Positions 5,326 to 59,435 are shown, counted from the first letter of the stretch. The stretch is DNA of 64,000 nt from Octopus sinensis (GCF_006345805.1 NC_042998.1:75888001-75952000), one strand, 5' to 3'. Program-made: numbers and translations. Notes: generated by a model from the letters alone, not told the origin.

Positions 5326-5414
5326 TTTCTTCCTGAAGAGAAAGACACAATATGGTCCCATTATTCAATCGGATTTTGGTAATTTGTGCCTTTCGAAACA
5401 CGTGTAGAATGAAA
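5326..5414 (+). ncRNA. Type I hammerhead ribozyme motif
   Basis: ttc-CTGAAGA-gaaagacacaa..ttgtgcctttc-GAA-ACACGTGT-A-gaa: intact core, long stem II, palindromic stem III, GUA cleavage triplet. Confidence 0.75.
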
Positions 5415-5938
5415 TAAAACGATTTCTGTTCAATCTGCGTTCAGCTCCATTTCTTCAATTCACCAATAATGTTTTATATATATATATATTATATATATAT
5501 ATATATATATATATATATATATATGCGGTTATGCATGTACACATTTAGTATTCAAGAAATATATTTTGTAGAATTACATTTATGTAAAGATGCTTCAGTA
5601 GAATTATTTTCGTAACAAAGGCATATATATCGGAGTATATCTATAAGTATATGTTTAATATATGCACGGGGGTGATAAATTTGATACTCCACTTAATTGC
5701 ATTAGTGATCCGTCTGTTAATGTTTCATTATTTTAAGTATGAAATAATCCAGACTAACATGTGTTACTATGTGTGTGTGTGCGTGTGTATACGCGCCTAT
5801 GTGAATATATATGTGTGTGTATGTATGTATGTATGTATGTACGTATGTATGTATGTATGTATGTATATATATATATATATATATATATATTATATATATA
5901 TATATATATATATATATATATATATATATATATATATA

Positions 5939-6547
5939 GGTATCAAGTTAAATGGCTTTAATACCTCTAAGGGATAATTAAATCCAGAGTCGCTCCTGGC
6001 TATTAGCTGGGTAGGTACAGTCTTTTGTAAGGTTGTACGGTAGCAAGTGGCTCGGTTGGTAAACCGGAGTTTGGGTTATATAGGAGAATAAAAAGATTAT
6101 GTATAAGGGAAGTAAGTAGTTCTGGATTTGGTGCAACTAGGGAAGATATAGATCTGTAATGTGAATGGTGTATGGGATGGAAGGGGGTTAGTTGTATTAA
6201 TTTAAAGGTTAGTATTGTTCAAACAGAAATATCACTCCGTCGAAGAACCACTCTCCACAAAGAACAAATCCGCCACCCACAATACAGATAGATACAGGTT
6301 AGGAACACATAGAAAGGTGTGCTAGGAATCTTAATCCTAATTTCCTAATTTTCCCCTTCTATCAATGTTCACAGAACACCTCAGTACAACAAAGTATGAA
6401 TAAAGAGGCAACTTTCATCAATAAATATCTTCCACAACTCAATATGAACACATAACATAATACAGAACACTACTAACCTTTCAATTAATACCACTAACCC
6501 CCATACATCCCATACACCATTCACATTACAGATCTATATCTACCCAG
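5939..6547 (+). mobile_element. Penelope-like element remnant: GIY-YIG C-terminus with inverted pseudo-LTR
   Basis: 6220-6455 reads QTEISLRRRTTLHKEQIRHPQYR..EHIERCA..IFPFYQC..KEATFINKYLPQLN; 6137-6220 is an inverted copy of 6465-6547. Confidence 0.75.
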
Positions 6548-7409
6548 TAAATATTGGAGCATTGTTGTACCACTATCCTATATTTATATATATATATATA
6601 TATATATATATATATATTTTACTTTTTCAGTCATTTGACTGCGGCCATACTAGGGCACCGCGTTGAAGAGTTTTGAGGCCTGACAACAACGGCACCACAT
6701 AAGATGCAAGACCAAACACACTCTCTAGAAAGCCTCCTTCTCCCTTTCTCTCTCTCTCCCTCTCTCTATCTATCTATCTCTCATTCTCTCTCTCTCTCCC
6801 TCTCTCTCTCTCCCTCTCTCACTCCCTCTCTCTCTCTCTCTCTCTCTTTCTCTCTCTCTCTCTCTTACATAACTAACCTTTTAAATTCTATTACTCCAGC
6901 ATTGAAACTATAATACTTATATAGTGCTAGCAGTTTATCTATTCATATTTTATATGAGAAACCGTATGAAGCATTTCAGAACAATTTATTTTAAATAGTG
7001 TTTACATCATTTTTACACACTTAGCCATGAGCCATCAACCTATATCTTTTAAGGTATGAAAATCATAGAAATGTATATGCTAACCACGGACGATAACTCG
7101 GTTGCAAGAAATTTGATTTATTTCACTTCAATACCGCCGTAAGTTTTAAGATATATACTTCTTCAATCATGGAATTATCATGCACATGACAGGAAATATC
7201 ATTCCAGATGGCTTATTGTAAATAGTGAAGAGATGGGTTTGCCAGAATATTCAATGTGTTAGTAAATATTAATTATTGTTATTAATATAATTTTGCAATT
7301 CTGCTTGGTGTAGCTTTAAAGGATGAAACATTTATTCATCTTATACTTCAATGCATTAAATTACTCTATTCAGTTTTGAGTTCTTACCTCATTAATGACA
7401 TAACTTATG

Positions 7410-8161
7410 TGTGTATATGTGTGTGTGCGTGAGTGTGTGTGTGTGTGCGTGAGTGTGTGTGTGTGTGTGCGTGAGTGTGTGTGTGTGTGCTGTATGTAAG
7501 ATAAATCGATGCATAGATAGATGTATATATATACATATATATGTGTGTGTATATACATATACGTACATATATATATGTTTCATATATATGTATACACAAA
7601 CACAATGTACATTAGTGTTTGTGTGTTTGTGTGTGTGTGTATATACAGACACAAAGAGAGACACACAAACACAAAGACAGAGAGACAGGGCATTATATAT
7701 ATATATATATATATATATATTATATATATATATATATACATATATATATATATATATATATAATATATATATACATACATATATATATATACATACATAT
7801 ATATATACATACATATATATATACATATATATATATACATAATATATATACATAATATATATACATACATATATATATATACTATATATATATATATATA
7901 CATACATACATATATATACATACATACATATATATACATACATATATATATACATACATACATACATACATATATATATACATACATATATATATACATA
8001 TACATACATACATATATATATATACATACACATACATGCATATATATGCGTACACACATACATACATACATACATGCATACATACATACATACATACATA
8101 CATACATACATACATACATACATACATACATACATACATACACATACATACATACATACAT
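7410..8161. repeat. Compound (GT)n/(TA)n/(TACA)n microsatellite
   Basis: Direct inspection. Confidence 0.95.
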
Positions 8162-8167
8162 AATATA

Positions 8168-9431
8168 CGGGGTTTCCTAGAAATATTTACCCATTAATAT
8201 TTCTTAATTATTCAAAATAAACTTAAGGTAGGATAATGAAATTTGGCACACATGTTCTAATGTAAACTGTTAATCCATTGCTATAACTACATTTCAAATT
8301 GGTTACCTTTCTCCTTGATCATAGCCTGCAAACGAGTGGTCACTGAGATACATGAGCACCGTACCACCTCTTCATTCAATTTGACCTATGGAGACAGAAG
8401 GGCTTTTTTCAAATCTGACACATTTGAAAAGGAGTGAGCAGAAACATTACTCTCTAAGATGGACCAGATAGCAAAGTCCATTGGATTGATGTCTGGATCT
8501 GAGGGAGGCCATCTCACCTTGTCCCAAAAACCACTGAAATGTTCTTTGCACCACCTCTGTGTCAAATTGGATGTGTGGGCCGGAGTCCCGTTTTAAGTGA
8601 AGATGTAACAGTCACCAACGTTTTGTGTGAGCCGAGTTAACACTTTCTCATCCAACATTTCTACATAAATTTCCCTCTTGATCTTGACGCCAGCATCGAT
8701 GAAGACCAAGGGAGACTTGGACCCATCAGATGCCACTGGCTTCTGACGGCATAAATGACTCCTATTACTTTCAGGCAAGTCTTCTGCATCACGTGCATAA
8801 AACCTGTCACTCTTCCTATTGTTAACTGCTTCCACAGTGAAGATCTTTTCGTCGGATAAGATCAACACTTTGTTAGCGGTGCGCTTCATCTCAGCTAACA
8901 TAATTTTACCCCTTTCGAGCTATTTCTTCTTGGAAGCTGCTGAAATTAACTAGCGGGATTGTTTCTTGTATGCACTTAGCTTTAAATTCTCTTTAAAAAT
9001 CCTGTCTATTGACGATTTCGAAATACCAAGATCTTTTGCAGTTTTTATTGCACTTCTGTGGGGATTTCGGTTCATTCGCTTCTTCACAGCTTCAACAGTT
9101 TGTTTGGTATGAATCGATCGTTTCCTACCAGAAATTGGCTGGCTAGAAGTAGTAGCGGACTTCATATATCGTTTCCAGGCACTGAACACTGTTTTACAGC
9201 ACACATTCAACTGTTTTGTTATGTCCTTGTTGCTCACTCCAGCTGTCGTCTAAGTGATAATCTGGTCACGTTTTGCTTTCGCCGCCATGTTTGTTCACAA
9301 ACTTGTTATAGACGAACGAAACAATAGAGAGATGAACAAAAGACGTATGCAAATCTTTATGTAAAATATTATCTGAACCGATAGGTTTTAGGAAGAGTTT
9401 TAAACATGGGTAAATCTTTCTGGGACCTCCT
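8168..9431 (-). mobile_element. Tc1/mariner DD37D (maT) transposon, near full length, inactive
   Basis: Imperfect ~26-bp TIRs (cggggtttcctagaaatatttacccat / atgggtaaatctttctgggacctcct) flanked by TA; internal transposase. Confidence 0.88.
8287..9288 (-). pseudogene. DD37D transposase pseudogene
   Basis: HTH region (DITKQLNVCCKTV, SAIKTAKDLGISKSSI), ILSDEKIFTVE, FT*NGTPAHTS and WPPSDPDINPMD with 37 residues between the 2nd and 3rd catalytic positions; stops and frameshifts. Confidence 0.88.
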
Positions 9432-57950: not shown

Positions 57951-58214
57951 AGAGTGAGAAAGAAAGAACATAGTCAACACATGAACATTTTCACACCAGA
58001 GTCTTCTCTCTGCTCCTATCTTCCCTGCGGATAATGATCTGCAATAATTTAAACAGAGATTTATGGTATCAAGCTCACTGATCTCGCGGAACCCACAAAA
58101 ATCGTGAGTAGCATGTCTTCCTTGAGACTTAGCAAGTAATGAAAATGTGTATACATTTAGACAATAGTACATGCGTCTACATAAATAGTGTAAGCATGTA
58201 CAGAGATAGTATAT

Positions 58215-58660
58215 TGTCATGAACGCTGAGGGTGTCTTAGCATTACTCAGAAAGACCTTTATCAGCCGCTCTCCAGCTATTATTTTAAATTTGTATATGA
58301 CTATAGTACTATCCATACTTAGAGTTTGCATCTCTAGTCTAGAACCGCTATCTTGCTCAGCATATCAATCTCCTGGAACCGTTCAGAAATGTGCAACCAA
58401 ACGAATACCCGCTGTTAAGCATCTACCATACTTCCCTGGTCATGGGCACGTTAAAGCCCCATCTGGTAACTGACTCGGTACACACTCACAAGATTATCCA
58501 ACATGTTTCCAAAAACAGCCTTCGGCACCTTTTTGAATTCCGTAGGTCTAACAATCGTAAACATGCTTACAAGATCAAAAAACAGCACAGCACCCATGAC
58601 TTCGTGTGCATATTCTATGTTCTGTTCGTACAGCTTTAGTTACCTTTTCTGAAGAGTTGC
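58215..58660 (+). mobile_element. CR1-like ORF2 C-terminal fragment
   Basis: LALLRKTFISRSPAIILNLYMTIV..VQKCATKRIPAVKHLPY..THKIIQH..RKHAYKIKKQ. Confidence 0.7.
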
Positions 58661-58904
58661 AACTGGACACTGTATGCAATAAGTTCGTGATTATTATTAT
58701 TGTTGTTGTTATTGTTGTTATTATTATTATTATTATTATTCCTATTATTATTATCATATACATGACAACACATGTATATTTAAAACAGTTTATGTGTATA
58801 TACAATAGTATATTTCTCTCACATAATAGTATATTTCTATACGTAACAGTGCATCTGTATACAAAACAGTATACATATATAGAATTGTATATGCATTAGG
58901 TGAT

Positions 58905-59048
58905 TACATCAACCCCAGTACTCAACTGGTACTTTACTGAGCCCGAAACGAAATTCCTCGGCGGAATTTGAGCTCAAAGCACAAAGATGGCTGAAATGTC
59001 ACTAAGTATTTTATCTGGCGCTGTAACTACTTTGCCAGATCAACGCCT
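58905..59048 (-). mobile_element. SINE family M fragment
   Basis: ccccagtactcaactggtact..cctcggcggaatttgagctca. Confidence 0.7.
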
Positions 59049-59387
59049 TGCGTGCACGCATAATAACATATAAGTATTTAAGCAAGGACACTTAGATAAA
59101 ATAATAGTACATGCTAATACGTAATTGCACAAGCATACACATAAATAATGCATGCATACATATGATAGTGCTTATATACACATTAATAGTACATTTACTT
59201 ACATAATAGTATAATGCAAAAATTGGTAGTACATATGTATAAAAATTCGTGTGTATGTGTGTGTATATATATATATATATATATATATATATATATATAT
59301 ATATATATATATATATATATATATAGATATATATATAAAGAAGTTTGAAAACGCCACTATATAAGATAAATTTTAATTTTCTTAGAA

Positions 59388-59435
59388 ATTTTACATGTTT
59401 CGGTTCTTCTTGAAAAAACGAACCTTATCAAAAAT
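59388..59435 (-). ncRNA. Hammerhead with U3:A8 core in a Penelope pseudo-LTR fragment (59335-59530)
   Basis: attt-TTGATAA-ggttc..gaacc-GAA-ACATGT-A-aaat; flank resembles 16811-16870. Confidence 0.75.

What the first reader, a model, noticed from the sequence alone, without database searches (positions are those of the whole stretch)
5398..59398. Hammerhead families carry distinct palindromic stem III sequences: possible dimerisation code
Seen: stem III is self-complementary in nearly every copy but differs among families: ACACGTGT (5398), ACGT (9775, family B), ACATGT (16872, 59388), ACTCGAGT (22976), (A)CAATTGT (23463), ACCGGT (24779, decayed at 39109), ACGTACGT (41995, decayed at 34911). 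Established: minimal hammerheads with very short palindromic stem III cleave as dimers by swapping strands. Inference: divergent palindromes would restrict dimer cleavage to matching partners, acting as a self/non-self key among co-resident families.
Basis: partly seen in the sequence, partly recalled or inferred. Interest (0 to 1): 0.7.

Follow-up and report, generated by a model that had tools for sequence, protein, structure and literature searches.

The report
Penelope-element hammerheads with family-specific palindromes
The window holds about a dozen families of hammerhead-ribozyme motifs of the kind carried by Penelope-like jumping genes, and their short palindromic third stem is real and kept by compensating changes, but unrelated families often share the same palindrome, so it is likely the known requirement for pairing with a twin copy and not a selected self/non-self code.

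Summary
Observation largely right; interpretation half right. The window holds 19 type I hammerhead-like motifs. A scan blind to palindromy gave 10 strong hits, 10 of 10 palindromic or G·U-palindromic, against 0.11 hits per shuffle. Four patterns give about 10^5 matches in G000. One family lies behind a Penelope-like RT + GIY-YIG ORF. Within lineages the palindrome changes by compensatory steps, often through G·U states, supporting dimer pairing. A swapped dimer also exchanges stem I, which alone blocks 1,133 of 1,166 between-family pairs. Corrections: 39109 is its own 11-nt family, not decayed ACCGGT; 15804 (ACGATTGT) was missed. Variable palindromes, including within one genome, are published (PMC4209133, Fig. 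S3), and the scan found this motif class before on other DNA. Residual idea: stem III is the sole predicted barrier in 5 of 17 related pairs. Cleavage untested.

The parts
5333..5406 (+). Type I hammerhead, family A (F0), core CUGAAGA to H17; stem III ACACGUGU at 5398-5405
   Evidence: 42 of 43 listed genome matches 100% identical
4337..4410 (-). Family A copy, inverted partner of 5333 in a tail-out hairpin 4267-5476
43111..43184 (-). Family A copy in inverted repeat arm 43041-43597
44104..44177 (+). Family A copy in inverted repeat arm 43691-44247
9778..9813 (-). Minimal hammerhead, family B (F3), stem III ACGU, extra base after A9
   Evidence: family frequent
10047..10082 (+). Inverted family B copy, C3 changed to U (core broken)
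15804..15881 (+).
16877..16910 (-). U3-A8 hammerhead, F1, stem III ACAUGU, about 1.1 kb behind the GIY-YIG ORF
18003..18479 (-). 3' end of a Penelope-like ORF with GIY-YIG domain (5'-truncated copy of the 781-aa RT + GIY-YIG ORF of L361); inverted partial F1 motif at 18488-18538
22982..23014 (-). Hammerhead F15, stem III ACUCGAGU; relatives have ACUGCAGU
23469..23532 (+). Decayed hammerhead F34, stem III GCAAUUGU (A15.1 changed); family state ACAAUUGU
24786..24816 (+). U3-A8 hammerhead F26, stem III ACCGGU
34914..35009 (+). Decayed hammerhead F4, stem III ACCUACGU; family state ACGUACGU; not the family of 41999
39110..39158 (-). Hammerhead F25 with 11-nt odd palindrome AUCGGUCCGAU
41999..42043 (+). 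Hammerhead F2, stem III ACGUACGU; elsewhere in about 558-bp tandem units
59392..59431 (-). U3-A8 hammerhead F21, stem III ACAUGU
16194..16221 (-). min-HHR-like copy with ACGU and U at core position 6; similar copies at 48233-48260 (-), 59869-59896 (-, ACAU) and 32019-32045 (+, U4 changed; matches F7)

Best explanation
These are type I hammerhead motifs in the 3' repeats of Penelope-like elements and their short derivatives, whose palindromic stem III likely lets two copies of the same element swap strands and cleave as a dimer, while the differences between families likely come from compensatory drift and not from selection for a self/non-self key. Shown: motifs, palindromy beyond chance, compensatory and G·U states within lineages, sharing among families, same-family tandem copies, link of one family to an RT + GIY-YIG ORF. 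Follows from geometry: if stem III of copy 1 pairs along its length with stem III of copy 2, each core takes U16.1, H17 and the 3' strand of stem I from the partner, so stems I and III are both exchanged. Inferred: the partner is normally the neighbouring tandem copy in one transcript; any palindrome works, so lineages wander among palindromes, mostly by transitions through G·U; heterodimer incompatibility is a by-product to which both stems contribute. Untested: cleavage. Most window copies are single or inverted 5'-truncated insertions, several with broken cores, likely inactive.
For: Palindrome-blind scans. Genome counts vs backward-pattern controls: 19,727 vs 1,529, 24,450 vs 4,770, 21,000 vs 1,058, 40,368 vs 1,719. 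Central pairs that cannot form in a single hairpin stay paired: 98-100% of stem III cells in three alignments, each with a two-sided change (sequences chosen by me). Predicted monomer hairpins for 6-9-nt stems are unstable (+1.9 to +6.0 kcal/mol), swapped duplexes -7 to -18 without initiation term. G·U form ACGNNTGT 5,822 vs its reverse-complement mismatch form ACANNCGT 1,201; 66 of the first 100 G·U rows are two subfamilies, 0 of the first 100 mismatch rows are (hand count). Sharing: 47 families, 26 palindromes; P(sim<=obs)=0.98 for 8-nt pairs. 49 units with sound own stem I, 1,166 between-family pairs: stem I compatible at both cores in 33; of 74 stem-III-compatible pairs 58 fail stem I at both cores, 10 at one. 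Same-strand neighbours within 1.5 kb: six families recur as same-family tandems, nine mixed pairs each occur once. F1 motif behind the GIY-YIG ORF in 27 of 30 loci; RVT_1 (just under cut-off) and GIY-YIG on the 781-aa ORF.
Against: Among 17 scored related pairs, stem III is the only predicted barrier in 5, stem I in 2, both in 3, neither in 7 (4 more skipped for weak own stem I), so stem III may matter between sisters. Stem III alone blocks 1,092 of 1,166 pairs, nearly as many as stem I. Relatedness inflates sharing, and I picked families from patterns that fix AC..GT. UGCA vs UCGA (F15) needs two transversions with no G·U bridge. Outside the two big subfamilies the G·U excess is only about 1.6-fold (estimate from the listed rows). 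9 of 58 units fail my own 3-pair stem I rule. 10-12-nt stems could fold as monomers (-1.0 to +0.8 kcal/mol), and PMC7229834 (passages) reports efficient cleavage of most invertebrate retrozyme hammerheads without need of dimers. Only F1 is tied to a Pfam-supported PLE ORF; family A's ORF pieces had no Pfam hit.
Confidence: 0.75

Rival explanations
1. Selected key among sister subfamilies: where stem I is still cross-compatible, a switch of the stem III palindrome would be favoured because it stops relatives or non-autonomous derivatives from forming dimers that cut or exploit the element's RNA.
For: Stem III sole predicted barrier in 5 of 17 related pairs and 3 of 13 within-family state pairs; F2 vs F55 keep stem I and differ in stem III length; F15 double transversion. 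Precedent for a palindrome choosing partners: HIV-1 DIS (PMC3187697, one passage).
Against: 7 of 17 related pairs stay compatible at both stems; G·U subfamilies bridge both end states with heterodimers as stable as their own homodimers; stem III shows no more two-sided changes than stems I and II; one of the five pairs (F36) rests on single copies and two CpG-type transitions; no cost of heterodimers is known; trans dimers in cells are unshown.
Confidence: 0.12
2. Genome-wide unique code: every co-resident family holds its own palindrome.
For: Most pairs of window families differ in stem III: 62 of 66 pairs incompatible.
Against: Direct sharing, also among families with near-identical copies (ACCGGT in F6, F12, F29; ACGTACGT in F2, F4; ACGATTGT in F5, F8); only 4 choices for AC-NN-GT and 16 for AC-NNNN-GT against dozens of families; the two commonest min-HHR families both use ACGT.
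Confidence: 0.03
3. The longer motifs cleave mainly as monomers with a 2-4-bp stem III, and loop palindromy is a secondary or inherited feature.
For: 10-12-nt stems form hairpins near 0 kcal/mol; many invertebrate retrozyme hammerheads cleave efficiently (PMC7229834, passages); a PLE hammerhead needed the element's protein to cleave and was not needed for insertion in vitro (PMC11167929, passages).
Against: Loop bases covary as pairs in several lineages; palindromy reaches the centre even in 9-12-nt stems; 4- and 6-nt stems cannot form stable hairpins.
Confidence: 0.1

Closest known systems
min-HHR and short palindromic helix III variants in pLTRs of metazoan Penelope-like elements (Cervera & De la Pena 2014, PMC4209133; read parts 1-2 of 4 of the text and parts 1-2 of 3 of supplement file 2; file 1 not available)
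   Same: Type I topology, CUGANGA/GAAA core, U3-A8 variant, extra base after A9, palindromic 15.2-16.2 and loop, many families per genome, inverted copies 100-700 bp apart. Its Fig. S3 consensus reads 'GAAAN Palind NU H' and lists different palindromes among families of one genome (e.g. Aedes aegypti CGCG vs GGCC).
   Different: Here about 10^5 pattern matches, stem III of 4 to 12 nt incl. odd lengths, loops II up to about 100 nt, and traced G·U intermediates within lineages; the parts read do not discuss partner specificity.
Dimer-cleaving small hammerheads of Penelope-like retrotransposons (Lunse, Weinberg & Breaker, PMC5785218; not held, known only through passages of PMC6765202 and PMC6466107)
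   Same: Very short palindromic stem III, cleavage as dimers, tandem layout thought to supply the partner.
   Different: Cleavage not tested here; whether that paper tested heterodimers or listed palindrome variants could not be seen.
Non-LTR retrozymes (PMC7229834, passages; bioRxiv 10.64898/2026.07.22.740005, parts 1-2 of 5 and passages)
   Same: Tandem non-coding units with one type I hammerhead each: F2 546-560 bp, F16 about 400, F20 444, F9 and F13 about 475-500.
   Different: Units are somewhat longer than the 170-400 nt reported in PMC7229834; circular RNA not shown.
HIV-1 dimerisation initiation signal (PMC3187697, one passage)
   Different: A trans kissing loop with a known consequence (copackaging, recombination); here the dimer is likely in cis, a second helix is swapped too, and no consequence is shown.

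Membership tests
Type I hammerhead ribozyme | Core CUGANGA (or U3-A8 variant) ... GAAA ... UH | tested here: met
   Intact in 13 of the 19 listed window motifs; altered in 10047, 23469, 16221, 32019, 48260, 59896
Type I hammerhead ribozyme | Stems I and II with covariation, ends in stem I | tested here: met
   Two-sided changes in stems I and II (stem II only in 67); 9 of 58 units have a weak stem I by a 3-pair rule
Type I hammerhead ribozyme | Match to an Rfam hammerhead model at gathering score | tested here: not met
   0 matches at gathering; none among the 150 of 239 weak rows shown. Not a defining feature of the PLE variants, which the papers found by descriptor.
Type I hammerhead ribozyme | Self-cleavage after H17 | not testable with these tools
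   Only contigs were available
PLE min-HHR / short-helix-III hammerhead | Very short palindromic stem III | tested here: met
PLE min-HHR / short-helix-III hammerhead | Location in the 3' repeat of an RT + GIY-YIG element | tested here: met
   Met for F1 (27 of 30 loci). Family A: RT-like and nuclease-like ORF pieces upstream (motif reading recalled, no Pfam hit). Other families not tested.
PLE min-HHR / short-helix-III hammerhead | Tandem or inverted 5'-truncated insertion structure | tested here: met
   37 tail-out and 25 same-strand same-family pairs within 1 kb among 343 motifs (loci were chosen around motifs); window hairpins
PLE min-HHR / short-helix-III hammerhead | Cleavage as a dimer | not testable with these tools
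   Indirect only: covariation of central pairs, energies
Non-LTR retrozyme | Tandem non-coding repeat with one type I hammerhead per unit | tested here: met
   F2 in L365: three copies about 559 bp apart, no ORF >=200 aa; the window copy 41999 is single
Non-LTR retrozyme | Expression as linear and circular monomer RNA | not tested
Self/non-self dimerisation code (proposed) | Each co-resident family has its own palindrome, sharing below chance | tested here: not met
Self/non-self dimerisation code (proposed) | Stem III is the determinant that excludes other families | tested here: inconclusive
   Sole two-core barrier in 27 of 1,166 pairs but in 5 of 17 related pairs
Self/non-self dimerisation code (proposed) | Heterodimers cleave less than homodimers | not testable with these tools
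   Needs cleavage assays

The most novel reading that the evidence does not exclude
Palindrome switching isolates sister subfamilies: after an element lineage splits, stem I stays cross-compatible, and a compensatory switch in stem III (walking through a G·U state that pairs with both) is selected because it stops relatives and non-autonomous derivatives from dimerising with and cutting the element's RNA, a ribozyme analogue of the HIV-1 DIS partner key. This genome would hold several natural orthogonal ribozyme pairs with living intermediates.
Probability: 0.12. Interest if true: 0.65.

Novelty: new member of a known kind. Interest (0 to 1): 0.3.

Why it matters
As it stands it extends a described class: a very large, diverse set of PLE-type hammerheads that gives comparative support for the dimer model, since bases that cannot pair in a monomer covary and move through G·U states that whole subfamilies carried while spreading. 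That is a clean natural example of compensatory RNA evolution and a ready panel of predicted orthogonal dimer pairs. If the sister-isolation reading held, it would show retroelements competing through ribozyme partner choice and would bear on the open question of what PLE hammerheads do.

Tried and rejected
Rfam: no hammerhead at gathering score; the 150 weak rows shown are microsatellite matches to miRNA models and one other RNA model. The repeat finder was swamped by microsatellites; only its inverted arms were used. Expression: no RNA holder listed on record; four contig sets laid on 16750-18600 cover the element in pieces but cannot show cleavage ends; no evidence either way. 'Two different hammerheads in one pLTR': L361 has F1 followed 667 bp later by F25 inside a 1.16-kb direct repeat, but in the other F1 loci shown homology ends near the F1 3' end, so it is locus-specific (output of 52 was cut). 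'39109 = decayed ACCGGT' and '34911 = family of 41995' rejected. '15804 = decayed copy' rejected. The Lunse paper was not held; literature searches for a specificity or heterodimer claim and for hammerheads in a guessed host group found none, but subscription papers are missing and one search was too broad to tell. Rows dropped before the family counts: of 333 clusters (645 candidates) I kept 47 judged real by eye, and within them only stem III states that were palindromic allowing G·U (58 units); this table therefore says nothing on palindromy, only on sharing. Dropped multi-copy clusters include F19, F22-24, F27, F28, F30-32, F38, F41, F42, F44, F46, F47, F49-54. No tree of RT sequences was built, as too few full elements were held.
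Full report
Setting. The window is G000:C2:75888001-75952000 in a 2.72-Gb assembly, 34% G+C and rich in microsatellites. The host taxon was not determined.

Observation. The cited palindromes are present as stem III of type I hammerhead-like motifs, with corrections. 23463 reads GCAATTGT with a broken A15.1; its family has ACAATTGT. 34911 reads ACCTACGT; homologues mostly read ACGTACGT, but stems I and II and loop II differ from those of 41995, so two window families share that palindrome. 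39109 is an independent family with ATCGGTCCGAT. In all I list 19 motifs, 13 with intact cores. A scan that scores only core, stem I and stem II found 10 strong window hits, all palindromic allowing G·U or a central unpaired base; 100 shuffles gave 11 hits, 3 palindromic. In 800 kb at fixed coordinates it found 31 hits, 15 palindromic in that sense, against 2 and 2 hits in two controls; about half of the rest are near-palindromes of known families, the others look like chance hits. Genome patterns: 19,727 vs 1,529 control, 24,450 vs 4,770, 21,000 vs 1,058, 40,368 vs 1,719; some matches overlap, so about 10^5 is an order of magnitude. Of the first 100 rows, 67 were perfect, 18 G·U palindromes and 15 neither (hand count).

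What they belong to. The window has the 3' end of a GIY-YIG ORF at 18003-18479 (-). The F1 motif follows it in 27 of 30 loci, and L361 and L362 hold the intact 781-aa ORF, with RVT_1 (E 1.2e-6, just under cut-off) and GIY-YIG hits for L361. Family A copies are near-identical, sit in tail-out hairpins and lie behind ORF pieces that look like a PLE-type RT and nuclease by recalled motifs but have no Pfam hit. F2 forms about 558-bp tandems without long ORF. Among 343 motifs, pairs within 1 kb were 37 tail-out same-family, 25 same-strand same-family and 13 same-strand mixed; adjacent same-strand tandems recur in six families, while nine mixed pairs each occurred once (loci were chosen around motifs). 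This fits the insertion structures described for PLEs (PMC8557442, passages).

Is palindromy maintained? Yes. Lineages defined by similarity with stem III masked and confirmed over 200-700 nt show: ACACGUGU / ACAUGUGU / ACAUAUGU (central pair UA 8, CG 4, UG 3 of 15); ACGAUCGU / ACGAUUGU / ACAAUUGU (GC 7, GU 3, AU 2, unpaired 1 of 13); ACGCGU / ACAUGU; ACUCGAGU / ACUGCAGU. These central pairs cannot form in a single hairpin. Predicted monomer hairpins of 6-9-nt stems are +1.9 to +6.0 kcal/mol, those of 10-12-nt stems -1.0 to +0.8; swapped duplexes are strongly negative (no initiation term). A strand-symmetry test: neutral decay should give ACGNNTGT (G·U) and its reverse complement ACANNCGT (A·C) equally; the counts are 5,822 and 1,201. 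47 + 19 of the first 100 G·U rows are subfamilies of F5 and F8, absent from the first 100 mismatch rows; without them the excess is about 1.6-fold, so the test rests on two or three lineages. The window's 15804 is one of them.

Is it a code? (1) Sharing: 47 curated families, 58 family-state units, 26 palindromes; ACCGGT, ACATATGT, ACAATTGT and ACGATCGT each in 5 families, ACATGT in 4. Among 31 perfect 8-nt units, 42 of 461 between-family pairs are identical against 28.8 expected if uniform. Relatedness and my sampling inflate this, but there is no sign of avoidance, and families with near-identical copies share too (F6, F12, F29; F2, F4). (2) Geometry: in the swapped dimer each core takes U16.1, H17 and the 3' strand of stem I from the partner. 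With a rule of three in-register junction pairs, 33 of 1,166 between-family pairs are stem-I-compatible at both cores; of 74 stem-III-compatible pairs, 58 fail at both cores, 10 at one, 6 at none (all 58 units: 33 and 98 of 1,640). Stem III blocks 1,092 pairs, so the two stems are largely redundant; median predicted penalties are 12.9 (stem I, both helices) and 10.5 kcal/mol (stem III). Among 12 window families, 4 of 66 pairs are stem-III-compatible and none of these is stem-I-compatible at both cores; one pair (F21/F26) is separated by stem III alone. (3) G·U states pair with both end states about as well as with themselves. (4) Two-sided changes are not concentrated in stem III: 1 of 4 pairs (2 of them free) vs 3 of 5 and 2 of 4; 1 of 4 vs 0 of 3 and 1 of 4.

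Mechanism. Shown: structure, covariation, context, sharing. Inferred: tandem copies in one transcript swap stems I and III and cleave after H17, likely processing element RNA; palindromy is required for any homodimer, and which palindrome is free to drift. Heterodimer incompatibility is likely real as chemistry and likely a by-product. Untested: cleavage, expression (uninformative).

Comparison. PMC4209133 describes min-HHRs, the U3-A8 core, palindromic helix III, dimer action and many families per genome; its Fig. S3 lists differing palindromes within single genomes. Reviews state the dimer and tandem requirement (PMC6765202, PMC6466107; passages). A partner-key role was not found in searches, but the primary dimer paper was not readable and supplement file 1 of PMC4209133 was unavailable. 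Earlier scan notes on other genomes reached the same class (unchecked notes); none exist for this genome.

Verdict. Real feature, new member of a known kind, interest 0.3. The useful additions are the scale, the range of stem III lengths and the G·U bridges. The code as a genome-wide key is not supported; a sister-subfamily version remains open at about 0.12.

Noticed in passing
L361:1-1153 and 5934-7091 (G000:C1:207473000-207480999): A full-length F1 element (479-aa upstream ORF plus 781-aa RT-GIY-YIG ORF) is flanked by a 99% identical direct repeat of at least 1.16 kb made of other repeats, including an F25 hammerhead; looks like a long flanking duplication.
   Followed up: partly
window 4267-5476 and 43041-44247: Near-perfect long hairpins of family A (arms about 600 and 557 nt, spacers 19 and 93 nt) with tail-out hammerheads; would form long dsRNA if transcribed.
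   Followed up: partly
window 17286-17703: Tandem 86/112/198-bp repeats inside the 3' UTR of the F1 element, with CTGATGA-like words; unit number appears to vary among copies.
   Followed up: no
window 16221, 48260, 59896 (-): Three min-HHR-like copies all have U instead of A at core position 6, which may be a family-wide change rather than decay.
   Followed up: no
L249:616, L247:1789, L331:4453, L354:3645, L307:3714: Stem III palindromes of 9, 10, 11 and 12 nt, odd ones with one central unpaired base; F55 (10 nt) is a relative of F2 (8 nt) with the same stem I junction.
   Followed up: partly
window 41999, 24786 and many loci: Many families have a mismatch (often U·U) in place of the G10.1-C11.1 pair at the base of stem II, and loops II up to about 100 nt.
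   Followed up: no
window 6214-6443 (+): Second, decayed GIY-YIG fragment similar to the F1 ORF (tblastn).
   Followed up: no
window 62456-63542 (+), 54464-54904 (-), 56406-56948 (+): ORF fragments that look like a non-LTR reverse transcriptase, a mariner-type transposase and a LINE 3' end (recalled motifs, not searched).
   Followed up: no
window 55795-55842 and 57141-57241 (+): Further partial, decayed hammerhead copies of F48 and F4.
   Followed up: no
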